This document shows, piece by piece, positions 2,096-64,000 of a stretch of 64,000 nucleotides of DNA; within the stretch, counting starts at the first letter, position 1; each line of letters begins with the position of its first letter. Made by a program: the position numbers and the translations under genes. Source of the stretch: a virus; IMG/VR virus record IMGVR_UViG_3300025570_000007, one strand, 5' to 3'. The notes below the pieces were generated by a model, which made no database searches, was not told where the DNA came from, and saw only the letters and a list, made by a program, of their open reading frames with translations.

Positions 2096-3244
2096 TTATT
2101 TTATAATTCCTGCTAGTTTCTGCATTCTTCTAACAGCGTCTGATGCTTCAGAGATAATCTCTGGTTTTGCAGCAGTAGTTCCGGTGGCTTTTGAAGCTCT
2201 ACCTAATTTTGCTTCTTGTATTTTGCGTCCTCTTATAGGCTTAGCAATTACGTTTTTAGAAACAGTTTCGTAAACTAATTTAACTTCTTTTACTGTCTCA
2301 GCTTTATCAAATGCAGTGATAATATTCACTTTTTGAGACTCGTTTAAATTATTTACTTTGAATACCTTATTTACATAAAGTAATTTAGCATTAAGAAGAT
2401 TAACTTCTTGAAGTTGTTTCTTAAGTACGTTAACTGTCTTAACTGCCTCTTTCAAGTCAGCTTTTACTTCTTCCACAGTTTCTTCTTTAGATTCTTCTTG
2501 TTCGTTTCTCATTGCTGATCCGGCTCCGGCTCCTAAGTCCTGTAAAAGTGCTATTGCTTTTGCAGCAATAGGTCCTCCTTTAGCTACTAGAGCTTTTAAT
2601 CCGTCAACGATACTATCAAGTCCAGCTGCAGCTCCTCCGGTTGGTTCTCCACCAAATTGACCTTCGTTTGCTTCGCCTTCTTCCATTGCAGAAAGTTCTC
2701 TAAGAAGTTCGTCTAAATCAATTTCCTCTTCTTCTTCTGCTCCCATCATATCATCAGCAGGCATTTCTTCGCCTGGTAATTCTTCTCCTGGGATTGGTTC
2801 TCCTTCTAGTCCACCTTCGCCAGCCTCTTGGCCAACTATGTCTCTAATAAGGTCTTTTAAATCGTCGATAGTTAAATCTTCAATTTCTAATTCGTCTTCA
2901 AGTTCACCTTCTTCGCCAGCTTCTGCTTCGTCTTCAGATTCTTCTGAATCAACCTCGGCTTCGTCTTCTAGACCTTCTTCTTCCTCTTCGAAAGTAAGTT
3001 CTTCCTCAAGTTGTTTAGTCTGTTCAGTTGTGTCTTTCGTGTTAACGTCTACTTCTCCACCTTGGATTTCATCAACTGTTTCTTCATCAGACTCTTCCAT
3101 CTCTTGAAGTTTTGCAGCTAACATGCTTTTTAAATGAGGTGTCAATGTTTCCTCTAAAGCGTCTTTAGCGTTGATTATAGCAGCTTCACGTACAGACTTC
3201 GCGGCAGCAATAGCTTCCTTGAATAGTTCTTTGTTGTTGTGCAT
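2096..3244 (-). CDS. Prohead core/scaffold protein (gp22-like)
   Basis: Highly acidic coiled-coil protein directly upstream of the capsid gene; C-terminal RMQKLAGI motif. Confidence 0.8.
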   Translation of the reverse strand: MHNNKELFKEAIAAAKSVREAAIINAKDALEETLTPHLKSMLAAKLQEMEESDEETVDEIQGGEVDVNTKDTTEQTKQLEEELTFEEEEEGLEDEAEVDSEESEDEAEAGEEGELEDELEIEDLTIDDLKDLIRDIVGQEAGEGGLEGEPIPGEELPGEEMPADDMMGAEEEEEIDLDELLRELSAMEEGEANEGQFGGEPTGGAAAGLDSIVDGLKALVAKGGPIAAKAIALLQDLGAGAGSAMRNEQEESKEETVEEVKADLKEAVKTVNVLKKQLQEVNLLNAKLLYVNKVFKVNNLNESQKVNIITAFDKAETVKEVKLVYETVSKNVIAKPIRGRKIQEAKLGRASKATGTTAAKPEIISEASDAVRRMQKLAGIIK

Positions 3245-3356
3245 TTAATAAATTTTTGTTGTGTCTACGATTATTGGAATCGTAATAGGAAAGTTTTTTA
3301 TGCGAATACAGTATAGTGACTGTATATTTGTAATAATAAATAGTGCTAGGTTCCGG

Positions 3357-28888: not shown

Positions 28889-30460
28889 TTAGTACCCCAT
28901 TGCCATCCATCTTCCTGTTCCACCATCTATAACAAGTGTGCAAGCTGTAGTTGAAACATTGTAAACATGGTTAGTTCCTCTAGATCCTGAAGAGGTTCTG
29001 TCAGTTGAACATGTTACCGATACGCATCTGGTTGGGAATGCGATTGGGAAAGTTATTGTAGGTTCTGTTGTACCGCCGGAGACGTATCCAAACTGTATAA
29101 TTAATCCTGTACTTAATCTCTGATATCCTGTGGTTGTGGTAAAGTTGCTAGCTACGTTTGTAACAACACTTCCTCCTGCTCCTGTACCTATTGTTGTTGT
29201 ATCTCCGTTTGCTAATAAAATTTGGGTGCTTGTACCGCCTTGCTTTATTAGCTTATTTGCTGTTACGTTTCCTGTTGCAACAATACTACTCCCTGCTGTT
29301 ACTGCTCCTGTTACATTTAAAGTATTTGAGAGTGTTGTTGCTCCTACTATCTTTAGTGTACTTTTGCCGGTAATATTCCCAGCAATATTCATACCGCCTG
29401 ATCCTGATATAAAACCTGTTACGTTTAAAGTTCCTCCTAGTGTAGTATTTCCTCCAATATTTAAAGTACCCCCTCCGTCTATATCTCCATCAAAATCTGC
29501 ATCTCCAGATCCTGATATTATCCCTGCTACTGTTATACCTATGTCTGAAGGATTATTTGTGTTAAACCCTATTTTACCGCTTGCTTGAAAAGTAGCAATA
29601 ACACCGTTTGCAGTTCCTGTTGTGCTTGTATAATTTCCTCCGTCAGCCCAGTCTATGTTAAACCCTTCTTTTTTGTTACTATCAGTGTTAACCATTACTA
29701 CTACGTTACCTCCATCTGTTCCTGTTGGAGATTCTAATAACAGTCCCTGTGAAAAAGAACCTACCGGTATTAATCTTTCTAATCCTCCGGATAAGTTATT
29801 TACTATATCTGCAATAACAGGTCTAATTTTATTTTGAGTATTTACGTAGTCTGTTGTTTTAGCGATACCTAATCCTAGAGTTGAAGAAACTGTTGTAATT
29901 CTCTGTGCAAACCCTGTGTTATTTCCTGTACCTACTCCTAACCCTGTAGAACTTAAAGTAGCTATAGGGTTAGCCGTTAAGGTATTATTTACTTGAAATT
30001 TTAAATAGTTACTACTGTTAGCAGTAAGGTATATGTCTTTTGAAGTATCGTATATTTTTCCAACTCTACCTGCAAGAGTACCTATACTGTAGAAATCTGT
30101 TTGAGCAAATTTACTAGTTCCTGTACTTGGTGTCTTTAGTGAAAGTTTTCCTGATGCATATGTAAGGTTAGAGCTTGCTCCAAAAGCTCCATTATCGTTA
30201 TACTGTATTTGAGTATTAGATCCAGCTGCTGATGCAGTTGATCCGGAGATAATAGTTGTTCCTCCATCTGCTCCTAATGGAACATCTGTATACCTTCCAT
30301 TTTCGTAACCTACTCCTAGTGCTGTGCTCCCTGAGTAGTGTAGTCTTAAGGTAGTTCCGCTATCTTGTATTGAACTTGAATAGTAAAACTGAGCTTGGTT
30401 TCTATCTAATTCATCGTATGTTAAGGCTGTTCCTTTATTTATTCTTAATACTATACTCAT
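28889..30460 (-). CDS. Tail fibre protein with gp53-like C-terminal domain
   Basis: N-terminal LR..KG.ALT..ELD.N; C-terminal GYQRL.TGLIIQFG...ITFPIAFP...W.A.GY. Confidence 0.82.
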   Translation of the reverse strand: MSIVLRINKGTALTYDELDRNQAQFYYSSSIQDSGTTLRLHYSGSTALGVGYENGRYTDVPLGADGGTTIISGSTASAAGSNTQIQYNDNGAFGASSNLTYASGKLSLKTPSTGTSKFAQTDFYSIGTLAGRVGKIYDTSKDIYLTANSSNYLKFQVNNTLTANPIATLSSTGLGVGTGNNTGFAQRITTVSSTLGLGIAKTTDYVNTQNKIRPVIADIVNNLSGGLERLIPVGSFSQGLLLESPTGTDGGNVVVMVNTDSNKKEGFNIDWADGGNYTSTTGTANGVIATFQASGKIGFNTNNPSDIGITVAGIISGSGDADFDGDIDGGGTLNIGGNTTLGGTLNVTGFISGSGGMNIAGNITGKSTLKIVGATTLSNTLNVTGAVTAGSSIVATGNVTANKLIKQGGTSTQILLANGDTTTIGTGAGGSVVTNVASNFTTTTGYQRLSTGLIIQFGYVSGGTTEPTITFPIAFPTRCVSVTCSTDRTSSGSRGTNHVYNVSTTACTLVIDGGTGRWMAMGY

Positions 30461-30463
30461 TTT

Positions 30464-31633
30464 TTATAATTTTGTAAACTTGTTAACTCCAAAGTTCATA
30501 TCCAGTTTTGCTACTACAACCATATCCGTATCTGCTGATTTAGGTATCGGTTGTCCCATTTTTGCTACTGCTATTAATTCATTAGCATCGTTATATAATC
30601 CTACTGTTGTAAAGTACGGTTGGAAATCTGATCCTGATATATTAGGTGCTATTTCTCCTGATGATATATCTAGAGCAGTCTTATTTAATGTATGATTCAA
30701 TTCCCCTGATTTTAACTTACAGTGGTAGTTATGTGTATAAATAGGTAAATTTGATTTCCAGTTCAATGTTGCATTGAAATAGTTGTTAAAGTACCCTGCT
30801 ACAATATCATCTGTTATTATAATCTGTCCATGAGGGTAGATTATATTTCCAACGTATTTTCTCGGCAGTGATGATTCGAAGTATAGGTTTCCTTCTCCAT
30901 CATCTACAATTCTTGTTGAATGTTGATCAGCTACTTCAGGGTCTATTGCGTTTGGATCTTCTCCTGTATAATCTGGGCCTAGATACTGCCCTCCTGCTGG
31001 TATTGTCTCTAGTACGTAGTCTCCTTCATCTTCAATATAATCTAAATCTGATAGAGGAAATGTTGATCCGTAAAGGTTTGTGGTGTTTTCTGCATACAGG
31101 TTATATATGTTATCGTAAGAATTAATACCTGCATCTGTAACGTAATTGTTCAGTACGTAGTTATGTCCATCACTTCCTGATCCACCTGATCCTGTTATAA
31201 TAGTTGATGTTATATCTGGCTCTAGTGATAGTGAGCCTGGTTCTATATGAGTTCCGTATAATTCTTTCGGTATTGAAAATACTGCTACCCTCTGGTAGAG
31301 GTATCTTGATCCGCTTACGTTAAATGAAGACTGTAGATAATTTTCATATGAACTTGAAACCGGTATTGATGCACTTGTAAAAAGGCTGTAGTATAAATGG
31401 TGTATGCTTTCGAAAGCTAGTCGCTTATCAAAAAGTACTTGAGAAGTACTTAGTACCCCTCCTCCGAAAGTTAGATTTATATCTTGCGGTATGTATGTTC
31501 CTGAGCCTGATAAACCAACAATGTTGAGTATGCCTAGGTCTATATACTGACTTCCACTAGCAGTCCACGACTTGCGTGCATTGTAAGTCGAAATATAAGC
31601 ATCTTGTTTGTTTAGTTTTTTGTAAGCACTCAT
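30464..31633 (-). CDS. Baseplate/tail structural protein
   Basis: C-terminal YFTTVGLYND.NELIAVAKM..P shared with the adjacent paralogue. Confidence 0.7.
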   Translation of the reverse strand: MSAYKKLNKQDAYISTYNARKSWTASGSQYIDLGILNIVGLSGSGTYIPQDINLTFGGGVLSTSQVLFDKRLAFESIHHLYYSLFTSASIPVSSSYENYLQSSFNVSGSRYLYQRVAVFSIPKELYGTHIEPGSLSLEPDITSTIITGSGGSGSDGHNYVLNNYVTDAGINSYDNIYNLYAENTTNLYGSTFPLSDLDYIEDEGDYVLETIPAGGQYLGPDYTGEDPNAIDPEVADQHSTRIVDDGEGNLYFESSLPRKYVGNIIYPHGQIIITDDIVAGYFNNYFNATLNWKSNLPIYTHNYHCKLKSGELNHTLNKTALDISSGEIAPNISGSDFQPYFTTVGLYNDANELIAVAKMGQPIPKSADTDMVVVAKLDMNFGVNKFTKL

Positions 31634-34309: not shown

Positions 34310-37300
34310 TTAACAAGTTCCCTCATATCCTGACCATGCTGTTCCGTTCCAGTATTTCCAGCTAGCTCCGTCAGAGTAATATCCTGCTGGTGCTAGGAGA
34401 CCGGTATTATTATAAGCGAATATTTGGTATTCGTTAGCTAGTACCGTGGACGGTGTAGGGTACGGTGATCCTTCTGTATATGCTGCAAAGATATTTACCG
34501 GGTATTGGAATCCACAAGCTTTTTGTGCAGGTTGAAAAGCGTCATTATTGTACCCTATATTCTGTACTGCTACTTTAAGTGTTACTGGTGTTGGTATTGA
34601 TAGGTTTATCTCGCTGCTCTCTAATATACAGGATCCTCCGCTATTTGCACGAAACTGTATTACATAGACTGGGTAAGGTCCTACTGTTATTAGCCCTATG
34701 TCCGGGTAGGCTGCTGCTAGGTCTAAATACTCCGTATATACTGGGTTAGAGTTTGGTGTTATCCAGGCGCTCCACGGTAAGGCTAAACTATTATCTCTTA
34801 CTCTAAATTCATAGGACGTACTTGCCTCTGTACCTGTAAATGCAAAAGGCGGTAGGAAATATCCACCTGTCCCGTCACTTCCGTATGTCATACTTGTTAA
34901 ACTAGTCCAATTTAAGGTACATTCCCCGAAGGTTACTGTTCTTGTCTGTGCACAGCTGTTTCTTATAGCATCCCTAACTGTTACAGTTATACTCTCCCCT
35001 ACTGTGTACCCTGTAAAGGTATGCGTAGTTTCATCATAGATCTGTATACCGTTTACTAAGTATTCTATGTTAGTGTTATAAGATGTGTTAAACCATGTTG
35101 AAATATCATAAGTGTTGAATGAAGTTACTATAAAGGGTGCTGATGAGTCAATCTCTAAGTCGCAAGCTACTACTATTACCTCTCTTACTGCGTTGCATCC
35201 TACTAATGTTGAATGTGTTGCTGTTACACTATAAGTATCATACTGTGACCATGATCCTGGTGTTGATTGAGTTGTGAAATCATAAGTAAAGTTCCAGGCT
35301 GTTACCGGTACACTTGTACTACCTTGAAAGAATACTGTAATATCGTATATTTCTGAGATTCCTCCGAATAGTGTGAATAGGTTTGTTTCAGATGTTGATA
35401 CTAACGGGTCTATGTAGAGTGGTGCGATGTCTACTGATATTGAGCATGCGTTTGCAGGCACATCCCTGTAGAATTGAACGTCGTATAGTACGGTAGGGTA
35501 GTTAATTTGCTTAAACGGGTTATTCTTATTCAGGTCTCTAGTGCTTACTTCTATTCGTGATCCTGAAAGTATCCCGTCAAATTTAGCTTCATTATGACTT
35601 CTTTCGAAGTATCCTGGTCCTTTATCCCCTACCCACTGTTTGGCAGCTACAAATCCATAAGGTGTTTGAACTCCCTTTCTAAAGTTTGTTGATGATTCTC
35701 CATCTACTGCTCCTGTTCCTACTGATCTAAAACTTCCTGCGTTTGACCCTGTTGTGAAGGCAGTATCTATTGAACCTGTGTGAACTGGTAGTGTATATGT
35801 CATTGTAGGAGAAACTATTTTACTCCTCTCTAATAAATGTGGTTTAATTATTATCCCTGTATCTGCAACTGATCTAGCAGGTATAAAATCCCTTACCATT
35901 CTAAAGATTACATTATCGAAAAATTTTATTAACCTTACAAAATCCTTTACATCGTACCTGCTAACATTTTCAAAGACTAAATCTTTATAGTTGTTTAGTG
36001 CAAAGTATCCTGATGTTCTTGTTTCTCTAGGGTCCCCAATATAATCGTCTATATTAAATGAAGAAGTCGGAAACAGTACTTGTGATTGTGATACTATGTA
36101 ACTGTCTATATTATCTGTCGGCGAAAAGCCTACTTCAATTCTATGAAGATCTTGAGTGTATCCACTGCCTTCCTGTACTATCTTAGTGTAGTACGATAAC
36201 GTATCTCCTACTGCTATACTTCCTGTATTACTTGTTCTAACCTTATCTAAAGAACCTGTCCAAGCTTGATCTCCTCCAAAGAAGGGTAGATCGTTTGACG
36301 ACTGGCCCCCGTATACTTTAATTTTTAATATGTCAGAAGGTATTCCAAAACATGAAATAAGAGCTCTTAATCCTCTCTCAGTACCTTTTGATTTTAACAG
36401 TAGTGGCAGGTTATGGTAAAGTCTCTTATATATTTCTTTTTGATAATCGTTTTGTGAAACAGATACTTCTCCTGATACATTTATAGTTGATAGTACTTCG
36501 TTACCTGTATCGTAAGAGTTTTTTGTAAAGTACCTAAATAGGTCGTCTACCGATTTGTTACTTGTATATAGTTTAACTCCAAAGTTTTTTAATAGATCTT
36601 CTACAAGATCTTTTGAAACACCTCTATTTAACCTATTATCTGCATTATACTTTTCAGACACATTCTTAGTGTATATCCACAAGTTATCAAAATGCTGTGC
36701 AACCATATGTACTAATAGTAGATAAGGTTCGTTATCTAAATCCTCTCTTAAGTAACTTGGGATAGTGTTAGTAAGTATATCATAATTAGAATCATCATAT
36801 AAAGTAGCTGATTCTACTGCTGTGTTAAACCATAGCTCTGCTACTGGATTTGATATACTTGCATTAACGTACGGTTTTACAAGATTTGTCTTCGGCCATG
36901 AGGTTGAACCATTTTCGTAGTATAGGTGTTTTTCGTAATGGTCAAAGTTATCTAAAACTCCATTGATTAAATTTTCATAATAATCTCTACTTCCTGATAT
37001 GCCTGCTGTAGCTGAAGTAGTATTTACCGTATCTAGGTTTAGTTGGTATGATTCTAATAACTGTACTTTATATTGAAAATTTCTTAATCTTTCCTCTGCT
37101 GAAGAGAAGTTAATAAATTCTGAATAGTCTGTATAGTCAATGCTTAGTGTTGCTCCTTTTTCAGCAAATGCTGATGTTAGTTCTCTGTTTGAATTATTTA
37201 CAGGGAAGCTAAAAAGTTCGTTGTAGTTAAAATATCCTGTTGATTCTGCTGTCTGTTCATCAACATCTATCTCAAAGTTAGGCCCTTTTATAGTGGGCGG

Positions 37301-38002
37301 TGTAATTACTTCAGGGATTATTTCTGTTGTTACTTGAAATGCTATTGCATCAGAAATATTTTCTACAAGTGTTACGCTATCTTTAAGGCTTGTATTATTA
37401 GGAAGAGGTTCGTATAGTTTTACATCTATTGCTACTTTTCCGTTAACAGTCTCTGTCTTAATGTTAATTGCTGAACTTGCTAAATCTACCCTGTTGTATA
37501 GGTAGAATTCAGTTATATACGCACTTGAAAGTATTTTACTTTGTACTTCTCCTGTAGTCTTTAATATAAAGTCGTCGGTAAGTTTTGTCGATAATAGCCT
37601 CACCTCTGTTCTATCAGGTGATATTGATTCAATGTAGAATAAGTTATCTTGGTTTAAATCAGAATATAAGTTATTGTAAAATTTGTAAAGTATCTTTATA
37701 TCTGTTCCTGCATACCCGTATGAGATAAGGTCTTTTTCAGGATCAATATCGATAGCTACTGCTCCATCTTTACCGGCAGAAGCACCATCTAAACTTATAG
37801 TGTAGTTTTTATAGTTACTATCTGAGTATAATTTTAGATCGTCTATTGATAGAAAAGTAATTTCTACAAAGTTTTCAGAAGGATTAAATAGAGCATTTAC
37901 AGAGAAAGATTCTACTAGGTTAGAATCCTCTGTTGTTAGAAACTGGCTACTTTCTAGTGTAGTTGCTTCTATTTTATTTATATTATATTTTAGTTTAGCC
38001 AT
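34310..38002 (-). CDS. Large baseplate wedge-like protein
   Basis: 1230 aa; IP.YL.ED, LLKSKGT.RGL..LI.CFG (P2 gpI/T4 gp7-like motif); beta-rich variable C-terminus. Confidence 0.65.
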   Translation of the reverse strand: MAKLKYNINKIEATTLESSQFLTTEDSNLVESFSVNALFNPSENFVEITFLSIDDLKLYSDSNYKNYTISLDGASAGKDGAVAIDIDPEKDLISYGYAGTDIKILYKFYNNLYSDLNQDNLFYIESISPDRTEVRLLSTKLTDDFILKTTGEVQSKILSSAYITEFYLYNRVDLASSAINIKTETVNGKVAIDVKLYEPLPNNTSLKDSVTLVENISDAIAFQVTTEIIPEVITPPTIKGPNFEIDVDEQTAESTGYFNYNELFSFPVNNSNRELTSAFAEKGATLSIDYTDYSEFINFSSAEERLRNFQYKVQLLESYQLNLDTVNTTSATAGISGSRDYYENLINGVLDNFDHYEKHLYYENGSTSWPKTNLVKPYVNASISNPVAELWFNTAVESATLYDDSNYDILTNTIPSYLREDLDNEPYLLLVHMVAQHFDNLWIYTKNVSEKYNADNRLNRGVSKDLVEDLLKNFGVKLYTSNKSVDDLFRYFTKNSYDTGNEVLSTINVSGEVSVSQNDYQKEIYKRLYHNLPLLLKSKGTERGLRALISCFGIPSDILKIKVYGGQSSNDLPFFGGDQAWTGSLDKVRTSNTGSIAVGDTLSYYTKIVQEGSGYTQDLHRIEVGFSPTDNIDSYIVSQSQVLFPTSSFNIDDYIGDPRETRTSGYFALNNYKDLVFENVSRYDVKDFVRLIKFFDNVIFRMVRDFIPARSVADTGIIIKPHLLERSKIVSPTMTYTLPVHTGSIDTAFTTGSNAGSFRSVGTGAVDGESSTNFRKGVQTPYGFVAAKQWVGDKGPGYFERSHNEAKFDGILSGSRIEVSTRDLNKNNPFKQINYPTVLYDVQFYRDVPANACSISVDIAPLYIDPLVSTSETNLFTLFGGISEIYDITVFFQGSTSVPVTAWNFTYDFTTQSTPGSWSQYDTYSVTATHSTLVGCNAVREVIVVACDLEIDSSAPFIVTSFNTYDISTWFNTSYNTNIEYLVNGIQIYDETTHTFTGYTVGESITVTVRDAIRNSCAQTRTVTFGECTLNWTSLTSMTYGSDGTGGYFLPPFAFTGTEASTSYEFRVRDNSLALPWSAWITPNSNPVYTEYLDLAAAYPDIGLITVGPYPVYVIQFRANSGGSCILESSEINLSIPTPVTLKVAVQNIGYNNDAFQPAQKACGFQYPVNIFAAYTEGSPYPTPSTVLANEYQIFAYNNTGLLAPAGYYSDGASWKYWNGTAWSGYEGTC

Positions 38003-38330
38003 TTGTTTCTAAATCGAATATTTGTTGATTTGCATCTAATAACTGTGCTCTCAGCTGTGCGATTTCATCTAATAGCGGTTGTAAATCTTCACTAGTGTTT
38101 TCTAAGTTAGTTAATTCACTACTTCTTTTTAGTATGTACTGGTGTGAATTTATATCTCCTTCTGCTGGTATGTTGTAAAAGAGTTTGTCATATAGTCTAA
38201 ATAGTTCCTCTACTGTATCGTTATCTTGTACAGGTGTTGGATCTACGAAGGTTGTAAAATCATTATTAACAACTGTGTCAAATTGATCTTTAATATAGAC
38301 AGTTTTCGATATTCTAACTTCATTACCCAT
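37995..38330 (-). CDS. Small baseplate-cluster protein with C-terminal coiled coil
   Basis: Coupled to both neighbours. Confidence 0.55.
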   Translation of the reverse strand: MGNEVRISKTVYIKDQFDTVVNNDFTTFVDPTPVQDNDTVEELFRLYDKLFYNIPAEGDINSHQYILKRSSELTNLENTSEDLQPLLDEIAQLRAQLLDANQQIFDLETNG

Positions 38331-39447
38331 TTCTTACCACTTTAAATATGTTCTCATTATCTACGACAATGTCACTACCGTCTAACTCTGTTTTAATTAA
38401 TATACGATAATATCTCTCAGGTTGCAACCCTCCCATATAAATATCGAAGTATGATCCGTTTGAATCACAACTAATTTTTGTAAAGTCTGTATCGAAGTCA
38501 ACTATCATCTCTTCTGTATTCTCATCTCTTATTCCCCAATACGATGCTTCGGGTAGAGCATAATTTGTTAAGTATATTGATGATGTAGTAAATGTTCTTG
38601 TAGGATATTTAGGTTTAGCTGTTAACTTGAACCTCTGTTTTCCTTCGTCTTGATACCTTCCTCTATTGTTTTTTATGCCAATTGTTGAGATGTCTGTAGA
38701 AAGTACAGATAAGCTTCCTGTTATGTACGAAGCATCGTCCCATTTAAATTCTAAGAAAGGAGGGTATATTGTATTAGTATCTCTACTAAAGTACTTTAAC
38801 CTTATTGAAGCGCTTGTATAGGCTTCATATCCATTCTCTAACTTTACAATAAATCCTTTGTTAGATAACGAACCTGAATACATTTGCTTAATTGCTGCAG
38901 TAACATTTATGTCAACATCGTGAGTAGAGTTAAGTTTATGATTCTGTACGAACTCCATTGATTCTCCGTTTGAAGATGTATACCATGTTGCTCCTCCGAC
39001 TTTTCCGTTTATCCAAGAAGATGTAACATCTGCAATAACAGATCCTGATACTTGCCAAGGATTTCCTTCTCCGAATTGAATATACTCCCAACTCACTCCT
39101 GTAATACTAGGTATAATATCGTCAAATTTACCTACTCCGTTATCCCATTCAACTGCTCCTGCAATGTATATAGGGTAAGCATACAGGTTATATTCTATAG
39201 GAAGCTCACTTGCTTCAGCTAAGTACATATGGTAACTCGAACTAAAGTTTGTACTACCTATGATGTTATTAATTACATCAGCTATATCTTCGTCAGCAAA
39301 CTTAGTAAGAATACGGTTTGTTTCTCCAAAATCACTACTCTTTGGGTAACCTCCAATCTCTATAATTTCATCGTTACCTGCATTACCTGTTGATTGTTCA
39401 GTAAAGATAAATGTATCTTTTTCCGGGAATATTCTATATACTGCCAT
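38323..39447 (-). CDS. Virion structural protein (beta-sandwich, DNRLRE-like N-terminal part)
   Basis: KDTFI...N.G.DEI.EI...RIL.KF, N.GFIVK, FSRDT.TIYPP.LE. Confidence 0.55.
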   Translation of the reverse strand: MAVYRIFPEKDTFIFTEQSTGNAGNDEIIEIGGYPKSSDFGETNRILTKFADEDIADVINNIIGSTNFSSSYHMYLAEASELPIEYNLYAYPIYIAGAVEWDNGVGKFDDIIPSITGVSWEYIQFGEGNPWQVSGSVIADVTSSWINGKVGGATWYTSSNGESMEFVQNHKLNSTHDVDINVTAAIKQMYSGSLSNKGFIVKLENGYEAYTSASIRLKYFSRDTNTIYPPFLEFKWDDASYITGSLSVLSTDISTIGIKNNRGRYQDEGKQRFKLTAKPKYPTRTFTTSSIYLTNYALPEASYWGIRDENTEEMIVDFDTDFTKISCDSNGSYFDIYMGGLQPERYYRILIKTELDGSDIVVDNENIFKVVRNG

Positions 39448-52325: not shown

Positions 52326-52535
52326 TTAGTCAGTTGTTAGAGAGAATACTCTGTAGTTATCTAATGTTTCCTGAATACTATCTCTTCTTAGTTGACTCTT
52401 TGAGAACTCTAACCCATCCTCTTTCAACACCTCCCTGGTAGCATCATATAGTAATTTACTTTGTACTAACATCTCTACAGTCATTGACTTATATTGCTCA
52501 TGCGTTAACTTCTCTATAAATGATTCTAATGTCAT
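52326..52535 (-). CDS. Hypothetical protein
   Basis: Second ORF of a cassette. Confidence 0.6.
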   Translation of the reverse strand: MTLESFIEKLTHEQYKSMTVEMLVQSKLLYDATREVLKEDGLEFSKSQLRRDSIQETLDNYRVFSLTTD

Positions 52536-52548
52536 AATGTTTGGTATT

Positions 52549-52575
52549 AAAAGAAGGAGGGTTTTTACACCCTCC
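52549..52575 (-). terminator. Probable terminator/attenuator
   Basis: GGAGGGT-GTAAAA-ACCCTCC followed by TTCTTTT. Confidence 0.6.
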
Positions 52576-52583
52576 GTTCCTAG

Positions 52584-53099
52584 TTAAAATTCTAATGCTA
52601 ACTGTATTCCTAATCCTGTTCTTATCAACTCATATGCTGATTGTACCTTTCTTGTTGGTAAGAATGTCATACCTTTCCAATCGATTAACTCTCCATCTTG
52701 AATTGTTAAAGCATGTTTAGCTACTAACACTATAAATGTCCCTTCTGGATTAGCTTGAACGAATGACTTAAGAGTCTTTTGTCTCCATACTTCCTCTCCA
52801 TGAAGTTTGTATAGATTTCTAGTCTGCTTTCTAGTACAGATCTTTACGTCAAATGTTCTCCCATCTAACTCTATTCCGTCCTTAGAAGCTTTCTCCATTC
52901 TACCTACAATCTGTTCGTTCTTTGTTCCTCTTCTGTCAACTCTCTTAAACTCTTCTTTACAGAATTTATGAGCTGAATTGTAAGCAATACCACTAGCAGC
53001 AGCTAAGCTTCTTACTACACAATCATTCTTTTCACCTCTCGCTAAAGCTGATCCTGATTCGATTAACTCGTTGTAACTGTTTTCAATTTGTAAATACAT
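52584..53099 (-). CDS. Papain-fold (C39-like) peptidase-like protein
   Basis: NDCVVRSLA (Cys) ... GTFIV.V.KHA..I.DG..ID (His/Asp). Confidence 0.6.
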   Translation of the reverse strand: MYLQIENSYNELIESGSALARGEKNDCVVRSLAAASGIAYNSAHKFCKEEFKRVDRRGTKNEQIVGRMEKASKDGIELDGRTFDVKICTRKQTRNLYKLHGEEVWRQKTLKSFVQANPEGTFIVLVAKHALTIQDGELIDWKGMTFLPTRKVQSAYELIRTGLGIQLALEF

Positions 53100-53166
53100 A
53101 ACCTCTGTTTTAATTATTATACCTAAATATAAGAAATATCTACGTTACTAGCAACTAATTCCGGAA

Positions 53167-53289
53167 TCATTTTGCATGACCTATTTGACTTTCTCTTAAT
53201 ATGTTACCTAAGTTTACATTGAAGATATATTCTGCTAATACCTTTGATCTTATCTCATTCATTCGCTCGTTGTATCCTTCTGGTGGCAT
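53167..53289 (-). CDS. Small hypothetical protein, 40 aa (not in track)
   Basis: MPPEGYNERMNEIRSKV...GHAK*. Confidence 0.4.
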   Translation of the reverse strand: MPPEGYNERMNEIRSKVLAEYIFNVNLGNILRESQIGHAK

Positions 53290-53307
53290 AGTATTGTTTT
53301 TTAATTG

Positions 53308-53514
53308 TTATTTAGTTAATTTAATTGTTTTTCTATCAACTGACCATAATGGAGTTCTACCTAAAGTTACTTGAAACTCTCCATGGATAGGATTCACTCC
53401 TGCGAAGGTTAAAATACCTACGTACCTCTCTCCTTTAACCTTAACCTCTACCTTCTTTCCAATCCAGCGTTTGAATTGTGGTACTGTCTGCTTTAATAGT
53501 AAATCTTTAAACAT
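53308..53514 (-). CDS. Cassette protein, Sm/SH3-like small barrel
   Basis: WIGKKVEV...G..Y.G.L pattern. Confidence 0.65.
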   Translation of the reverse strand: MFKDLLLKQTVPQFKRWIGKKVEVKVKGERYVGILTFAGVNPIHGEFQVTLGRTPLWSVDRKTIKLTK

Positions 53515-53555
53515 AACCTCTGTTTTAAATATACCTAAATATATGAATAATCTAG

Positions 53556-53813
53556 TTAGGATCCAACTTTTAAATGAGTATATAATGATCCGTAGTACCC
53601 TCCTCCTCCTTTATTAGAGCTCCAGGTATCTGCATGAACTCCTGTAGCACCGGTAATAATTTCATCTCCTTTTTGGTACCTGTACTGTCTTACAAACCCT
53701 ACTCCTTCCTTATCGATAGGAACAAACCCTGCTCGAGTTAAGGCATTGTAATGCCACTGATCTTCTACCTTGTGTACTTTCTTATCTGCTTTGTTAAAAT
53801 CTACTGTGTTCAT
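53556..53813 (-). CDS. Cassette hypothetical protein
   Basis: ATG in the repeat leader. Confidence 0.75.
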   Translation of the reverse strand: MNTVDFNKADKKVHKVEDQWHYNALTRAGFVPIDKEGVGFVRQYRYQKGDEIITGATGVHADTWSSNKGGGGYYGSLYTHLKVGS

Positions 53814-53860
53814 AACTCTTATTGTTTTAATTATAACTAAATATATGAATAATAACTCTG

Positions 53861-54217
53861 TTAGGCAACTCTACCTAACAGTTTTTCTAGTTCCGGAAAC
53901 TGCCCTCCTATAGTCTTCATTTGAGCTATCTTCTTACTCTCCTCTCTCTTCTTAGCAATCGCTTGCTTCTTTTCCTCTCTATAAGCTTCAACCCAATATG
54001 CCATTTGATCTTCATGCTGATCTAAAGCCTCTCCTCTATCAGCTTCTGACTCATATCTCTGCCAATGACTTCCGTAAGCACTTTCCCACTCTACAGCTGG
54101 TACTGTAAACTTACCTTCTGCATCCATTCCATAATCTATATCACTTACATAACTTCCTCCTGTATTGCAATATGCTTCGAACTCCTTATTTGTAATTTTA
54201 ATCTCTGTAGTACCCAT
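53861..54217 (-). CDS. Cassette hypothetical protein
   Basis: ATG in the repeat leader; C-terminal T.GGQFPEL..L. Confidence 0.75.
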   Translation of the reverse strand: MGTTEIKITNKEFEAYCNTGGSYVSDIDYGMDAEGKFTVPAVEWESAYGSHWQRYESEADRGEALDQHEDQMAYWVEAYREEKKQAIAKKREESKKIAQMKTIGGQFPELEKLLGRVA

Positions 54218-54282
54218 AACTCTTATCGTTTTAATTATACCTAAATATACGATTAATTAAGGTAGTAGGCAACTAATTTAAT

Positions 54283-54311
54283 AAGAAAAGGCTCCTTAAA
54301 AAAAGAGCCTT
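54283..54311 (-). terminator. Rho-independent terminator
   Basis: AAGGCTC...GAGCCTT followed by TTCTT. Confidence 0.65.
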
Positions 54312-54341
54312 ATTCCTAATAATAATTAAAACTACAGTGGG

Positions 54342-55172
54342 TTATGAAGCAACTGTATTTGGTTGAACAACTTGCTTTGAATGATATCTTATCAAGTTCT
54401 CTATATTTTTATATCTTACATTTTCAAATGTATGTGTGTAAGTATTCTCTGTTTCTATTCTCTTATCATCTACATATTCATATTCATACTGGACTAAATT
54501 TAATTCAATATTACATGACTTTCCCGATTTGGTTTTAGAAACGATTCTAGCTTTTTTAATCTGTCTTACTTCATGATTGAAAGCAATATCCATCATTGGA
54601 TAGTTACATTTCTTTCCTGTCTCAAAATTTATCTTTCCAAACTCTACTCCTTCTTTTTCAAGACGATCTAAAAGTATTTGTTTTGCTTCTTGCTTCTGCC
54701 TATCTTCCACTCCTGTAATCTCTTTCTCTAAATCCCAAATCTCTTTGTACTTTTTATTAATCCCCTCCTTACATTCAGAATGTATAGCATTTATATTATT
54801 GATAATAGTCTGCTTATCTAATAAGATAACCTTAGCACAATTTCCCATTACGATTAATCTCTCTAATTCAAAAGTAGATTCTTCTGATGTCGAGTAAGCT
54901 GACATCCTAAGTCCTCTTACTGCTTTAGTATCATCACCATAAAAAGTATCAAATTGTAATGAAAACATCTCTCTAGCAAAAGTCTCATCATCTCTTTTTC
55001 TTTCAACTTGGAATGATGAACTTCCTTGTTTAATATCAAACCCTTCTATGAGCTGATCGCCAAAACGATGATTAACGTACTCTGTACATCTTGCGTTTCT
55101 AATGTCTTCTAAGTCCCATCTCTCTTTCTTAAGTTCGATAAGCTTCTCTTGTAAAATTTGTAATGCTGTCAT
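54342..55172 (-). CDS. Cassette hypothetical protein (coiled coil)
   Basis: 276-aa ORF, ATG in the repeat leader. Confidence 0.8.
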   Translation of the reverse strand: MTALQILQEKLIELKKERWDLEDIRNARCTEYVNHRFGDQLIEGFDIKQGSSSFQVERKRDDETFAREMFSLQFDTFYGDDTKAVRGLRMSAYSTSEESTFELERLIVMGNCAKVILLDKQTIINNINAIHSECKEGINKKYKEIWDLEKEITGVEDRQKQEAKQILLDRLEKEGVEFGKINFETGKKCNYPMMDIAFNHEVRQIKKARIVSKTKSGKSCNIELNLVQYEYEYVDDKRIETENTYTHTFENVRYKNIENLIRYHSKQVVQPNTVAS

Positions 55173-55221
55173 AACCTTTATATGTTTTTAATTATACCTA
55201 AATATAAGAAATATATATACG

Positions 55222-55632
55222 TTAGCCAACTATTTCTTTAAGTTCTTTTAAAGTATTTTGACAGGTTATTAGTTGCTTTTCTAATAAATTAATCTTATCT
55301 TTAGCAGCTTTTCTAATATCTAATTGATCAGAATACATCGCTTTATAAAACTCACCCTCTGTAATAGTAGTTTTCTCCGGAACTTCCTCTATATTAATAT
55401 CTCTTAAATCTCTATCAGTAAAAATAGTAGCTCCCCAATGACATCCATATCCTCCCCTACCTGGTGCAAATCCCACTTTTACAACTCCGGCAACTTTTAA
55501 TAATTCTCTCTCTAAATCCTTATCAAATTTATTAACAAATAAGAACTTTAATCTTCTTCCCTCTACTCTCTTATCATTAAAAATGGTAACAGACTTTCCT
55601 AATTCCTTTTCAATAAAATGCTTTAGTTTCAT
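55222..55632 (-). CDS. Cassette hypothetical protein
   Basis: FNDKR..GRRLK; ATG in the repeat leader. Confidence 0.75.
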   Translation of the reverse strand: MKLKHFIEKELGKSVTIFNDKRVEGRRLKFLFVNKFDKDLERELLKVAGVVKVGFAPGRGGYGCHWGATIFTDRDLRDINIEEVPEKTTITEGEFYKAMYSDQLDIRKAAKDKINLLEKQLITCQNTLKELKEIVG

Positions 55633-55709
55633 AACCTATTGTTTTAATTATACCTAAATATATGAAATAAAAAGGGAAGGAGCAACTCTTCCCCTTATTT
55701 CTTTTTCAA

Positions 55710-60864: not shown

Positions 60865-60961
60865 AACTCTTATCGTTTTAATTATACCTAAATATATGAA
60901 TTATAATTGTAACTACCTACCCTTTCCGGAAATTAATTAAGGAAAATAAAGTTACTTAAAT

Positions 60962-60995
60962 AGTTGCTCCTTACATATATAGTCCGTATCTTTAG
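60962..60995 (+). promoter_or_regulatory. Divergent Bacteroidota-type promoter with no ORF downstream
   Basis: AGTTGCTCC...-N20-TATCTTTAG on the plus strand. Confidence 0.65.
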
Positions 60996-60999
60996 ATAG

Positions 61000-61130
61000 A
61001 AGCAATAGATAAGTCTTGGGCGGGGTGTCACATCAACACCGGAAGAGTAGACGGGCCGGTACCTTATATTCAAATCCCCTCCTTTCCGGCCTACGAACCA
61101 TTCTTCACATTTCCAACTATTTTCCGGAAT
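61000..61130 (+). ncRNA. Candidate structured small RNA
   Basis: GC-rich, ORF-free; stems GGTGT/ACACC and GTAG..GGCCGG/CCGGCCTAC downstream of a promoter. Confidence 0.35.
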
Positions 61131-61292
61131 TTTTCAATATATTTTAATATACATATTTATATACCTGTATATACCTATCCCCCATATAGCAACAAAGCTT
61201 GAATAGAGAGGAGTTACTTGAATAGAGGCAAAGCTTGATTGAAGGGACAAAGCTTGATAAGCAACTGTCCTTGAAAGGGCCCTTCCTTAGTA

Positions 61293-61532
61293 CTATAGTC
61301 TAGTTACTTGTCTATTTAGAGAGAGGGTTAAACGGTCCCTTAGTTTAGTAGTTGTAAGAGACTCTTGCCTGGTAGTGCACCGGTAGAGGAAGGTTACATT
61401 AAACCTAGTAATCAACTTCCGGCATACTTTAATGTGGTACTGAGAGGTACAGGACTTAATACACTTGCTTATCTTGTAGTAGGCTTTATACTTACTACTC
61501 TTTGACAGTCTCTTGAGGGAAGGTTTAGTCAT
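61293..61532 (-). CDS. Basic hypothetical protein
   Basis: KI...I.SC....H...C..LI..F; promoter AGTTG-N20-TATCTTAA at 61537-61569 ends only about 5 nt before the ATG (possibly leaderless). Confidence 0.6.
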   Translation of the reverse strand: MTKPSLKRLSKSSKYKAYYKISKCIKSCTSQYHIKVCRKLITRFNVTFLYRCTTRQESLTTTKLRDRLTLSLNRQVTRL

Positions 61533-61589
61533 AGTATTAAGATAAGAATTAATACCCAGACAGGCAACTGTACCATAGAGACAATTACG

Positions 61590-61710
61590 GTGAGAAGGAC
61601 GGCGGGAAGACGTAGTGAGGATGGCGGGAATACCCTACCTAGTGAGGACGTAGTGAGGATAGCGTGAAGACGGCGGGAGTCTCCCCTATTTTACCCCTTT
61701 TACCCCTTCT
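61590..61710. repeat. Degenerate short G-rich repeats plus pyrimidine repeats in a non-coding region
   Basis: GGCGGGA x3, TAGTGAGGA x3, TTTTACCCC x2. Confidence 0.75.
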
Positions 61711-62163
61711 TATTCCGGAAAGAGAGGAAGGTACGGGCCTAGACGGGCCTTTTATTCCATTATTCACATTTTTTAAGGAATCTCCTATAGTACCTATTGT
61801 ATTATATGTAAGGAAGGGAAGGTTTTACTGTTAATGTCGTAAAAGTCGAGGTTCATAGAAAAAATCTATAGAAAAAATTTGTTTTTTAGACAGGCACCTG
61901 CCTTACATCTCTATCCTTCTTTCCATACCTACCCTATTCAATTCTTACACATATACATATATACTCATGTACCTCTATACTTATATAACTATATACACAT
62001 ATACTTCTATACTTTTTTATACACTTGACCTACTTAGCCTTCCTTATACATGTTATATAAGGTTTTCCCTATATCTCTCAGTGTCTCTATAGGAATCTAT
62101 TCAATACGATTATAGTATATTGTAATGCTTTGGAAGGTTATTAGATACAGTATTAACTACTCG

Positions 62164-62839: not shown

Positions 62840-63454
62840 TTATTTTAATTTATATTTGAACATTCCTTTATCGTCGTAATAATTTTTATCTAAATCTAAG
62901 TCACAAGGCACTTCTGCAAATTCTCGCATTGTTGGATTGTATGTACCTAAACTAACCCCTTCAACGATTAACTCGCATCCATCTTTAATTATAATGTTTG
63001 CTTGAGGTGAAACACTACCTTCTACGATTAATTGTGTATTGTGACCATTAATAGTAAAAGTACCAGTGCCTGTAATATTACCAGTTACAACCAAATGCAC
63101 ATTTACAGTACTATAATTTATGCCATCTTCTAAATGTAAATCACCTTCAATTTTAGCCCAAATACACGTGTATCTGTAATCTGCGGAATCTAAGCAACCA
63201 CTAGCTATTATGTGCCTTTTGTTGTCTTTTAAGTAATCCCAGATAAATGCGGTTTCCCTTGTGTCGTGTTCTCCTAATACTGTTAATGTTTCAGCCTTGC
63301 TATATAAGCTAAAGTCAGTAACTGCTGATTGTTGGGGGGAGTAAACCTTCTCAACTGCTTGCGTACATTTATCTTCACAAGATGTTAACAGTAACATAAT
63401 ACCAATACCTATTTTGAAATATTTAATTTCACTAAAATCTTTTATACTTTTCAT
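62840..63454 (-). CDS. Putative lipoprotein
   Basis: Basic N-region, hydrophobic core, lipobox LLLTS|C, beta-helix-like body. Confidence 0.65.
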   Translation of the reverse strand: MKSIKDFSEIKYFKIGIGIMLLLTSCEDKCTQAVEKVYSPQQSAVTDFSLYSKAETLTVLGEHDTRETAFIWDYLKDNKRHIIASGCLDSADYRYTCIWAKIEGDLHLEDGINYSTVNVHLVVTGNITGTGTFTINGHNTQLIVEGSVSPQANIIIKDGCELIVEGVSLGTYNPTMREFAEVPCDLDLDKNYYDDKGMFKYKLK

Positions 63455-63480
63455 ATTTTATAATTTAATGTTTATTATTT

Positions 63481-63532
63481 TAATAACAGTTGATATAAGT
63501 CATTAAAAACGCCTCATATCTTTGTGTTAGGC
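63481..63532 (-). mobile_element. attC-like recombination site (short)
   Basis: Coding strand GCCTAAC-ACAAA-GATATGAG...CTTATATC-AACT-GTTATTA; the upstream ORF stop lies inside TAAC. Confidence 0.6.
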
Positions 63533-63751
63533 AACATTTAAAACTAACTTATCGCCTTTTAAATCATAAGCCAAAAAACCATATTTTTTATTCGGTAGGT
63601 ATTCTATGTAATTCTCAATAGTGTCTTTATAATCAGATAAGTTGTCGCCAATATAATCAAGGTCGTGGGTGTCATAATATCCGTTTTCATAAGCATCTAT
63701 TGCGTCCTCTATACTTTTTAATTCTTCTAATATCTCTTCAGTCCATTTCAT
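63527..63751 (-). CDS. Acidic hypothetical protein in an attC-like cassette (true start MKWTEE at 63751)
   Basis: Bounded by complementary 10-mers GTTAGGCAAC and GTTGCCTAAC. Confidence 0.7.
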   Translation of the reverse strand: MKWTEEILEELKSIEDAIDAYENGYYDTHDLDYIGDNLSDYKDTIENYIEYLPNKKYGFLAYDLKGDKLVLNVA

Positions 63752-63762
63752 AATAAAACGTT

Positions 63763-63885
63763 GCCTAACAATGTGTATAAGCAATAGCTGTCAGGCTTTT
63801 TAACTATTGCAGTTGTTTAATATTTAATTTTGCTTCTCTTTGCTTGGTTCGTGTAGGCTACTGCTCATACACAAATACGTTAGCA
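63763..63885 (-). mobile_element. attC-like recombination site (long)
   Basis: Coding strand TGCTAAC..TGTGTATGAGCAGTAGC...GCTATTGCTTATACACA..GTTAGGC; 17-nt imperfect inverted arms. Confidence 0.65.
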
Positions 63886-63999
63886 AAAATAATTTACTAC
63901 TATCCACATCCAAATGAAGTGCATTACTTGGTCTACTACAAAATGACCCCAAGGTAAAGTGTTTTGCTTTAATTCAGTTTGAAACGAACCCATCGTTTT
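63880..63999 (-). CDS. C-terminus of a DUF3307-like membrane protein (runs off the window)
   Basis: ...LPWGHFVVDQVMHFIWMWIVVNYFC*, DQxxH motif; stop inside TGCTAAC. Confidence 0.55.
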   Translation of the reverse strand, partial: KTMGSFQTELKQNTLPWGHFVVDQVMHFIWMWIVVNYFC

Positions 64000-64000
64000 A

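What the first reader, a model, noticed from the sequence alone, without database searches (positions are those of the whole stretch)
63481..63999. Integron-like attC cassettes in a lytic-type phage genome
Seen on the coding strand: ORF...TGC-TAA-C [17-nt imperfect inverted arms, 123 bp] GTTAGGCAAC - 74-aa ORF ending GTTGCC-TAA-C [GATATGAG/CTTATATC arms, 52 bp] GTTATTA - lipoprotein gene. Both upstream ORFs stop inside the TAAC. The 10-mer opening the middle cassette (63760-63769) is the exact reverse complement of the one closing it (63526-63535), while within each site the two ends match less well. Established: this is the signature of integron cassettes (RYYYAAC...G^TTRRRY, with a cassette's ends complementary in its circular form). 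Inference: the phage has captured cassettes through an IntI-like, ssDNA-hairpin recombinase, probably host-encoded since none is in the window. This is a second gene-acquisition route distinct from the promoter repeats, and the array may continue past the window edge.
Basis: partly seen in the sequence, partly recalled or inferred. Interest (0 to 1): 0.8.

Follow-up and report, generated by a model that had tools for sequence, protein, structure and literature searches.

The report
Integron-like gene cassettes in a phage
The end of this phage window holds small swappable gene units bounded by folded DNA hairpins. They belong to an integron-like gene-shuffling system shared by phages of Flavobacteria-type bacteria and their hosts, and no recombinase for it is in view here.

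Summary
Both hairpin sites, the two stop codons inside TAAC and the exact complementary 10-mers (63760-63769 / 63526-63535) are present.

Comparison with other DNA shows they are not chance:
- Site 1 is a conserved ~120-nt hairpin element. It occurs in about 28 viral contigs, in Cellulophaga phage phi18:3 and in 46 Bacteroidota genomes.
- Units made of hairpin + cargo + closing box recur at 86-99.9% identity in unrelated flanks. They always break at an AAC triplet.
- The box that opens the cargo is the reverse complement of the box that closes it, and the pair is specific to each cassette.
- Site 2 belongs to a short hairpin family with a conserved loop and compensatory stem changes. That family includes P12002L_attC1 of Qi et al. 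2023.

The integron-like reading is supported, with two corrections. The hairpin travels with the ORF downstream of it, so the coding strand is the folding strand. The recombinases found beside related arrays are short Xer/IntI-clade enzymes that lack the IntI insert.

The window has no recombinase, so it resembles an orphan array (CALIN). This scan reached the same reading earlier on other genomes. I rate it a new variant of a known kind.

The parts
63880..64000 (-). 3' end of a DUF3307-family gene. It is the cargo of the upstream cassette and its start lies beyond the window edge.
   Evidence: Open-ended ORF. Weak DUF3307 hit. The same gene at 88-94% identity occurs in four viral contigs (L079-L082), with homology ending at 63879-63875 in three of them and at 63845 in L079, whose next unit begins with a related but degenerate hairpin.
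63879..63887 (-). Closing box of the DUF3307 cassette (9 nt ending in TAAC and containing the stop codon).
   Evidence: In L079, L081 and L082 the gene is preceded by the reverse complement of this box.
63760..63881 (-). Site 1, the long attC-like hairpin site. Order: AAC, 5-nt spacer, 17-bp stem with two G.T pairs, ~68-nt loop, 2-nt spacer, opening 10-mer.
   Evidence: Folds and scan. 87% identity to phi18:3 with unrelated flanks. About 28 viral and 46 bacterial copies. The arms are invariant across 47 sequences.
63857..63873 (-). 5' arm of the site 1 stem.
63772..63788 (-). 3' arm of the site 1 stem.
   Evidence: A 15-nt stretch of it is identical in all 47 aligned copies.
63760..63769 (-). 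Opening box of the 74-aa cassette (begins GTT).
   Evidence: It is the exact reverse complement of 63526-63535.
63527..63751 (-). 74-aa cargo ORF of unknown function. Its ATG lies 8 nt after the opening box and its stop codon lies inside the closing box.
   Evidence: Homologues at 66-86% identity in metagenomes. One of them (L095/L096) sits in the same cassette architecture in different flanks.
63526..63535 (-). Closing box of the 74-aa cassette (ends TAAC).
63526..63879 (-). The complete mobile unit (354 bp): hairpin site 1 + opening box + ORF + closing box.
   Evidence: Window versus L095: 86.4% identity over 352 nt, spanning 63872-63525 only. Analogous 356- and 367-bp units are 99% identical in different flanks.
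63481..63528 (-). Site 2, the short hairpin site. Order: AAC, 5-nt spacer, 8-bp stem with one G.T pair, 13-nt loop, 4-nt spacer, GTT box.
   Evidence: It is a member of a short family with a conserved loop: 9 sequences, 95.7% of cells paired, 7 of 10 stem pairs with compensatory changes, 0 of 500 shuffles as good. P12002L_attC1 of Qi et al. 2023 has the same loop and is matched by my pattern for this family in the P12002L genome; it was not among the nine aligned sequences.
62840..63454 (-). 204-aa lipoprotein gene that follows site 2. It is possibly the cargo of the next unit, but the end of that unit is not established.
   Evidence: No relatives in IMG/VR. Only a 7-nt complement of its opening box is found, at 62137, which is not significant.
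53860..53869 (-). Isolated copy of the same closing 10-mer at the stop codon of a 118-aa ORF. It may be a relic of a cassette end.
   Evidence: No matching opening box is nearby.
55221..55230 (-). One-mismatch copy of the closing 10-mer at the stop codon of a 136-aa ORF. It may be a relic.

Best explanation
What it is. The window ends in a short row of integron-like gene cassettes. Read on the coding strand, each unit has this order:
1. a hairpin recombination site that starts just after an AAC;
2. an opening box that begins with GTT;
3. a small gene;
4. a closing box that ends in AAC and is the reverse complement of the opening box.

How it would work (inferred by analogy with integrons). A unit excises as a circle, in which the closing and opening boxes pair to complete the hairpin. 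A tyrosine recombinase of the Xer/IntI clade recognises the folded single strand. It exchanges strands within the AAC (equivalent to G^TT on the other strand) with another such site, so that whole genes are inserted, removed or reordered.

The window's phage encodes no such enzyme in 64 kb. Its cassettes are therefore orphans that need a recombinase supplied by the host or by a co-infecting phage.

Shown here: the discrete units, the AAC borders, the cassette-specific complementary ends, the conserved hairpins, and the linkage to short Xer/IntI-like recombinases in some relatives.

Inferred: the single-stranded substrate, the circular intermediate, the exact bond that is cut, and which enzyme acts.
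For: 1. Site 1 is a discrete conserved element. Its homology to phi18:3 starts at the TAAC and ends at the opening box, and the flanking genes are unrelated. The same holds in about 28 viral loci and 46 bacterial genomes.

2. Identical units occur in different flanks and break at AAC on both sides:
- L029/L031: 367 bp at 99.5%; L008/L015: 356 bp at 98.9%;
- a 1380-bp unit at over 98.8% identity in five species, a 2.4-kb unit and a unit of at least 3.3 kb;
- the window's own cassette versus L095.

3. The opening and closing boxes covary from cassette to cassette. A complement of 9 nt or more to a cassette's own box is found in 26 of 61 cases, against 3.3% when boxes are swapped between loci. 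L006 holds four cassettes, each with its own complementary pair.

4. Hairpin structure: the short family shows compensatory changes. The variants of the long element in phi19:3 and P12002L differ from the canonical arms on both strands so that pairing is kept. G.T pairs lie on the coding strand only.

5. In bacteria the flanks of a unit are other hairpin sites with different sequence but the same layout, so the units stand in arrays.

6. Recombinases of 266-279 aa lie 1-2.5 kb downstream of arrays, in the same orientation, in L073, L058, L029 and L032, with a fragment in L031. L085 has one about 0.2 kb from a 133-bp repeat that it shares with an array flank; I did not establish the relative orientation there. 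In the 210-kb record the only tyrosine recombinase sits about 1.2 kb from the element. The best profile hits are XerA/integron-integrase and the IntI subfamily.

7. Cultured sister phages phi18:3, phi13:2 and phi19:3 share a junction directly after an AAC and carry different cassettes upstream of it.
Against: - There is no recombinase in the window.
- 12 of the 15 viral records that carry the element have no tyrosine recombinase, including three that are 91-100% complete.
- The linked recombinases lack the IntI insert and score below the IntI cut-off.
- The stems have no bulged (extrahelical) bases.
- With DNA energy parameters neither strand of site 1 or site 2 folds better than shuffles (z about -0.15 to -1.4), and the minimum-energy fold of site 2 is a different structure.
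- Several loci hold only half of the long element, which shows that ordinary recombination inside it also happens.
- The arms of the long element are nearly invariant, so they provide almost no covariation themselves.
- Qi et al. obtained no verified IntI1 recombinants for P12002L_attC1, a member of site 2's family.
- The unit that would start at site 2 has no convincing closing box.
Confidence: 0.65

Rival explanations
1. The hairpins are regulatory elements (5' leaders, terminators or processing sites in RNA). Phage mosaicism arises by homologous recombination at these conserved intergenic repeats, as with the promoter-stem-loop cassettes of T4-type phages. No dedicated site-specific recombinase is involved.
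For: - The phage-type element always ends 8-12 nt before an ATG, and its loop is conserved.
- G.U-compatible pairing on the coding strand fits an RNA; the RNA fold is -31 kcal/mol with z = -2.8.
- Half-elements show recombination inside the repeat.
- In the Cellulophaga siphoviruses other modules break at a conserved intergenic leader rather than at AAC.
- The same window has a separate array of promoter-leader repeats.
Against: - Homologous recombination does not explain the single-triplet borders on both sides of units whose flanks share no homology.
- It does not explain the cassette-specific complementarity of opening and closing boxes.
- Bacterial copies have their cargo on the opposite strand, so the element is not a leader there.
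- There is no Rfam family and no promoter or terminator signal above chance.
Confidence: 0.15
2. The units are moved by a different hairpin-dependent enzyme. Candidates are an HUH/Y1 transposase of the IS200/IS605 or REP-associated type, or the large Bacteroidota-type phage integrase seen next to the array in phi18:3. The resemblance to integrons would then be convergent.
For: - The units insert next to a fixed short motif (AAC) and have subterminal hairpins on one strand, as in single-strand transposons.
- In phi18:3, phi13:2, phi19:3 and phi46:3 the array lies about 0.3 kb upstream of a 429-aa integrase of another family.
- Most carriers lack a Xer-like enzyme.
Against: - The enzymes repeatedly linked to arrays, in a fixed orientation, are Xer/IntI-clade tyrosine recombinases.
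- Complementary cassette ends are a hallmark of integron cassettes, not of IS200/IS605 elements.
- I did not search for HUH transposases.
Confidence: 0.12
3. Chance inverted repeats in AT-rich intergenic DNA.
For: Site 2's hairpin score is in the chance range genome-wide. TAAC stops are not enriched over the whole window: 19 of 83 TAA stops.
Confidence: 0.02

Closest known systems
CALINs (attC clusters lacking an integrase) in virulent phages, Qi et al. 2023 (PMC9892861), especially Polaribacter phage P12002L
   Same: - Orphan attC-type sites flanking small genes in a lytic-type phage of a Flavobacteriaceae host.
- P12002L_attC1 (their Table S3) has the same conserved loop and layout as the family of site 2.
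- P12002L also has a variant of the long element, and methyltransferase cassettes with complementary ends.
   Different: - That paper treats the sites as classical attC sites recognised by IntI1. attC1 gave no verified recombinants; attC2, on the other strand, did.
- It does not describe the conserved long element, the cassette borders, the inverted cargo orientation, or the short insert-less recombinase.
Classical integrons and sedentary chromosomal integrons (IntI, attI, attC; for example the Vibrio VCR arrays)
   Same: - AAC/GTT cores.
- Two-stem hairpin sites of 45-135 nt.
- A stop codon often inside the box.
- The first bases of a cassette are complementary to its own inner box.
- Arrays of heterogeneous sites.
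- The recombinase gene lies at the same end and on the same strand relative to the sites.
- Bacterial relatives keep the canonical gene-then-site order.
   Different: - The recombinases lack the IntI insert and are 266-279 aa long.
- There are no extrahelical bases; conserved G.T pairs are present instead.
- Phage cargo genes lie on the folding strand, downstream of their site.
- The complementary boxes are 9-14 nt long rather than 6-7.
- The stem sequence is conserved across classes of Bacteroidota.
Promoter-early stem-loop (PeSL) regulatory cassettes of T4-type phages
   Same: Repeated intergenic stem-loop elements flank small, variable early genes in a large myovirus, and modules are shuffled between phages.
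   Different: PeSLs are thought to act through homologous recombination and carry a promoter. Here the borders fall on a single triplet, the ends are complementary within each cassette, site 1 occurs only once in the window, and no promoter consensus is found.

Membership tests
Integron (IntI / attI / attC) | Integron integrase with the IntI-specific insert (profile TIGR02249 above its cut-off) | tested here: not met
   No tyrosine recombinase in the window. Array-linked enzymes in relatives score 161-185 bits against a cut-off of 265. They align to the IntI profile in two pieces with the middle missing.
Integron (IntI / attI / attC) | attC layout: outer boxes ending in AAC and starting with GTT, unpaired spacers, an inner imperfect stem, and a variable loop | tested here: met
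   Sites 1 and 2. Family alignments. Heterogeneous neighbouring sites with the same layout.
Integron (IntI / attI / attC) | The first bases of a cassette are complementary to the inner box of its own site, so the ends pair in the circular form | tested here: met
   The window's 10-mers. 26 of 61 cassettes against 3.3% in the control. Four different pairs in one array.
Integron (IntI / attI / attC) | Crossover at G^TT (AA^C on the bottom strand) | tested here: inconclusive
   All unit borders fall within or next to the shared AAC triplet. The exact bond cannot be resolved from sequence alone.
Integron (IntI / attI / attC) | Extrahelical bases in the inner stem that mark the recombining strand | tested here: not met
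   The 17-bp stem has no bulges. It has two invariant G.T pairs instead.
Integron (IntI / attI / attC) | Cargo gene precedes its attC on the top strand | tested here: not met
   In the window and in phage relatives the site precedes the gene on the coding strand. Bacterial relatives do meet this feature.
Integron (IntI / attI / attC) | Recognition by the attC covariance model (IntegronFinder, HattCI) | not testable with these tools
   The model is not available here, and Rfam has no hit. HattCI did predict P12002L_attC1, which belongs to the same short family.
CALIN (attC cluster lacking an integrase) | Two or more attC-type sites close together with no integrase nearby | tested here: met
   Two sites about 350 bp apart, and no recombinase in 64 kb. 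The sites were judged by structure and homology, not by the official model.
T4-type PeSL regulatory cassettes | A repeated early promoter plus stem-loop on both sides of the variable genes | tested here: not met
   Site 1 is single-copy in the window. No promoter-like signal above shuffles.
IS200/IS605-type single-strand transposons and their miniature derivatives | Y1 HUH transposase; separate subterminal hairpins at the left and right ends | not tested
   I made no search for HUH transposases. The architecture (one hairpin per unit and complementary unit ends) does not fit.

The most novel reading that the evidence does not exclude
These cassettes belong to a distinct gene-capture system found across Bacteroidota. 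It resembles an integron but is run by short Xer-type recombinases that lack the IntI insert, and its sites use conserved G.T pairs instead of extrahelical bases. It links virulent phages, temperate phages and host chromosomes into one cassette pool. In phages the units are inverted, so the recombination hairpin sits directly upstream of, and co-oriented with, each gene.
Probability: 0.45. Interest if true: 0.8.

Novelty: new variant of a known kind. Interest (0 to 1): 0.63.

Why it matters
Integrons are held to be nearly absent from Bacteroidota (IntegronFinder 2.0 paper) and to depend on the IntI-specific insert. This study shows the following.

- Cassettes with integron hallmarks are common in Bacteroidota genomes and in their phages.
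- They move at up to 99.9% identity between genomes labelled as different orders and classes.
- Where a recombinase is linked to them, it is an insert-less enzyme.

If that enzyme is confirmed, three things follow. It would widen the definition of integron-type recombination. It would give a mechanism for the hyperplastic small-gene regions of marine and freshwater phages. It would also identify a route by which lytic phages and hosts exchange single genes, such as methyltransferases and other counter-defence genes.

Tried and rejected
- Rfam, window 63300-64000 at E up to 10: no family.
- Sigma-70 promoter and intrinsic-terminator scans: nothing above shuffles.
- tRNA scan of 58-64 kb: none.
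- DNA-parameter folding of both strands of both sites: not better than shuffles, so thermodynamics alone does not pick out the sites or the strand.
- Whole genome of the window: not held, so nothing beyond 64000 could be read.
- Relatives of the lipoprotein gene in IMG/VR: none.
- Near matches of the window in the phage collection: only a baseplate segment and the element itself.
- Closing box for a unit starting at site 2: only a 7-mer, which is not significant.
- phi18:3 gp037 as an IntI-like enzyme: rejected. It is a 429-aa integrase with Phage_int_SAM_5 and Phage_integrase domains and no IntI hit, and it has no homologue in other carriers.
- The bacterial copies as a host RNA gene or a phage attachment site: considered and rejected. 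The same unit sits in different flanks in different species.
- An inverton (invertible segment between the two boxes): considered. I have no evidence for both orientations of any one cassette.

Full report
**Observation.**
On the minus (coding) strand an ORF that enters from beyond 64000 stops with TAA at 63882-63880, followed by C.

- Site 1 follows: a 5-nt spacer, a 17-nt arm (63873-63857), a loop of about 68 nt, the pairing arm (63788-63772), 2 nt, and a 10-mer beginning with GTT (63769-63760).
- Eight nt later a 74-aa ORF starts (63751). It stops inside a 10-mer (63535-63526) that is the exact reverse complement of the first one.
- Site 2 follows: a 5-nt spacer, 8-nt arms (63520-63513 and 63499-63492) around a 13-nt loop, 4 nt, and a GTT box. 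The ATG of a 204-aa lipoprotein gene comes next.

**Is it more than chance?**
- A generic scan for AAC-spacer-stem-loop-stem-spacer-GTT scores site 1 at 16; shuffled sequence reaches about 12.
- Site 2 scores 9.5, which is inside the genome-wide chance range.
- Given an AAC at that exact position, only about 0.4% of AAC triplets in shuffled sequence carry such a hairpin.
- The 10-mer pattern is enriched in the window: 14 matches with up to 1 mismatch, against 3.5 +/- 1.9.
- Two further copies lie at stop codons of ORFs at 53.9 and 55.2 kb.
- Folding energies with DNA parameters are not exceptional for either strand. The RNA-parameter fold of the coding strand gives the long hairpin at -31 kcal/mol, z = -2.8.

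The case therefore rests on comparison with other DNA, not on thermodynamics.

**Site 1 is a conserved, discrete element.**
- The only part of the last 2 kb with a match in the phage collection is site 1 itself. It is 85-87% identical to Cellulophaga phage phi18:3, between gp034 and gp035. The homology starts at the TAAC and stops at the opening box, and the genes on both sides are unrelated.
- Exact 18-21-mers from the arms hit 31 IMG/VR contigs. About 28 of them align over all or half of the element at 80-94% identity.
- A 24-nt pattern from the 3' arm hits 46 species genomes, most of them labelled Bacteroidota: Flavobacteriales, Sphingobacteriales, Saprospiraceae, Cytophagales and Bacteroidales. 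A few contigs binned with other phyla carry the phage-type element.
- In 47 aligned copies the arms are essentially invariant, including both G.T positions. The loops fall into unrelated types.
- Rfam has no matching family.

**The element is the head of a mobile unit.**
- L029 and L031 share 367 bp at 99.5%. L008 and L015 share 356 bp at 98.9%. Each shared piece is hairpin + small ORF, and the flanks on both sides are unrelated.
- Homology begins right after an AAC and ends at an AAC.
- In L008/L015 the opening box differs from the window's, and the closing box differs in the complementary way.
- The same holds in bacteria. A 1380-bp unit (deformylase- and Crp-like genes, named from their N-terminal sequences only, not profile-tested) is over 98.8% identical in five species. 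A 2.4-kb unit occurs in two species. A unit of at least 3.3 kb with a 741-aa outer-membrane-receptor-like gene (also unverified) is 99.8-99.9% identical in three genomes labelled Bacteroidia, Psychroserpens and Phaeodactylibacter.
- The flanks of these units are other hairpin sites with different sequence but the same layout, so the units stand in arrays.
- Over all copies, the opening box has an exact complement of 9 nt or more ending in AAC downstream in 26 of 61 cases. With boxes swapped between loci the figure is 3.3%.
- A 2.2-kb contig (L006) holds four units, each with its own complementary pair.

**The window's own units.**
- The ORF running off the edge belongs to the DUF3307 family (weak hit). 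It recurs in four contigs at 88-94% identity between its own opening and closing boxes, each time with a different neighbour. Homology to the window ends at 63879-63875 in three of them. In L079 it runs on to 63845, because the next unit there begins with a related but degenerate hairpin.
- The 74-aa protein has metagenomic homologues.
- In L095/L096 it sits behind a long element and before the same closing box, in different flanks. The window and L095 align at 86.4% over 63872-63525 only.
- In L092 it has another hairpin. In L094 it has none.

**Site 2.**
Its arms look like a truncated version of site 1's arms, with the same G.T position. It belongs to a short family that has a conserved 11-nt loop and variable stems.
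- Nine sequences were aligned. 95.7% of cells are paired, and 7 of 10 stem pairs carry changes on both sides. None of 500 shuffles is as good, and slid registers drop to 28-50% paired.
- Members of the family head cassettes that have complementary ends.
- One site with the same loop and layout is P12002L_attC1, predicted by HattCI in Qi et al. 2023. It was not in the nine-sequence alignment. In P12002L it heads a methyltransferase cassette with complementary ends.
- I could not find a convincing closing box for the unit that site 2 would head.

**Orientation.**
In every recurring unit the hairpin upstream of the phage ORF moves with it.
- The G.T pairs lie on the coding strand and would be A.C mismatches on the other strand. 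The coding strand therefore corresponds to the integron bottom strand, and the shared AAC corresponds to the G^TT crossover point.
- In bacterial copies the cargo lies on the opposite strand and ends inside the box. That is the canonical integron order.
- Phage cargo is thus inverted relative to classical cassettes, with the ATG 8-12 nt after the box.

**Recombinase.**
- The window has none, by tblastn and by an HMM built from the linked enzymes.
- Of 15 viral records with the element, two encode a full tyrosine recombinase and one a fragment. Each lies 1-2.5 kb downstream of the element, on the same strand. In a 210-kb record it is the only one present.
- Three records that are 91-100% complete have none.
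- Bacterial arrays in two Sphingobacterium genomes are linked to a homologue in the same way. In an Albibacterium genome a homologue lies next to a 133-bp repeat shared with an array flank.
- These proteins are 266-279 aa long. Their best hits are the XerA/integron-integrase and IntI profiles, below the cut-offs. They align to IntI in two pieces and so lack its insert.
- phi18:3 and its relatives instead have a 429-aa integrase of another family about 0.3 kb downstream of the array.

**Cultured relatives.**
- phi18:3, phi13:2 and phi19:3 are 97-98% identical from a point directly after an AAC onwards, and they carry different units upstream of it.
- phi19:3 has a variant of the long element with two compensatory pair changes and both G.T pairs retained.
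- One 363-bp module sits at different places in the early-gene regions of two of these phages.
- Other modules there break at a conserved leader, so homologous recombination acts alongside.

**Literature.**
- Qi et al. 2023 reported CALINs in virulent phages, including P12002L, and IntI1-mediated recombination of some of their sites.
- The IntegronFinder papers report almost no integrons in Bacteroidetes.
- My searches found no description of this insert-less system.
- Earlier notes of this scan on other genomes reach the same reading. I treated them as leads and tested the main points here.

**Verdict.**
The finding is real. The window holds an orphan row of at least two, possibly three, units of a widespread and barely described integron-like system.

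Noticed in passing
window 52500-55700, minus strand: Several small ORFs end in TAAC and are followed by a near-identical AT-rich unit of about 45 nt that runs into the next ATG. Two of these ORFs end with the cassette-type closing 10-mer.
   Followed up: partly
window 59676, 59968, 60562 (plus strand): Three copies of a one-mismatch variant of the 10-mer (starting GG instead of GT). They probably lie inside a repeated unit of the promoter array.
   Followed up: no
window 60900-62150: A stretch of about 1.2 kb with only short, implausible ORFs and no tRNA by ARAGORN. It may hold non-coding RNA.
   Followed up: partly
L001 (phi18:3) 2660-3330; L089, L090, L091: In four cultured Cellulophaga siphoviruses the cassette row ends directly upstream of a conserved 78-aa ORF and a 429-aa integrase. 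Upstream modules are reordered between the phages. phi18:3 gp034 appears to run through a degenerate hairpin site that has its own complementary boxes.
   Followed up: partly
L006 (2203-bp IMG/VR contig): A 127-bp terminal direct repeat makes this four-cassette contig look circular (about 2076 bp). It could be a real multi-cassette circle or an assembly loop. From their sequences, the cargo looks like an HNH nuclease and a DNA methyltransferase (not profile-tested).
   Followed up: partly
L033, L048, L061: A unit of at least 3.3 kb with a 741-aa outer-membrane-receptor-like gene (unverified) is 99.8-99.9% identical in three genomes labelled Bacteroidia MAG, Psychroserpens and Phaeodactylibacter. 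This points to very recent transfer between classes.
   Followed up: partly
L073 5530-5865; L067 left flank: Next to the recombinase there are sites in which an opening box is followed after only 11-17 nt by its complementary closing box. These could be empty cassettes or attI-like sites.
   Followed up: no
L080 about 1030-1090: The DUF3307 cassette here lies just downstream of what looks like the 3' end of a tRNA gene, and no clear hairpin site precedes it.
   Followed up: no
L099 (P12002L) 37300-39250 and 29200-31000, minus strand: The Mom-like gene and several methyltransferase genes of this cultured phage are each bracketed by hairpin sites of the same families, with complementary boxes. 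DNA-modification genes seem to be frequent cargo.
   Followed up: partly
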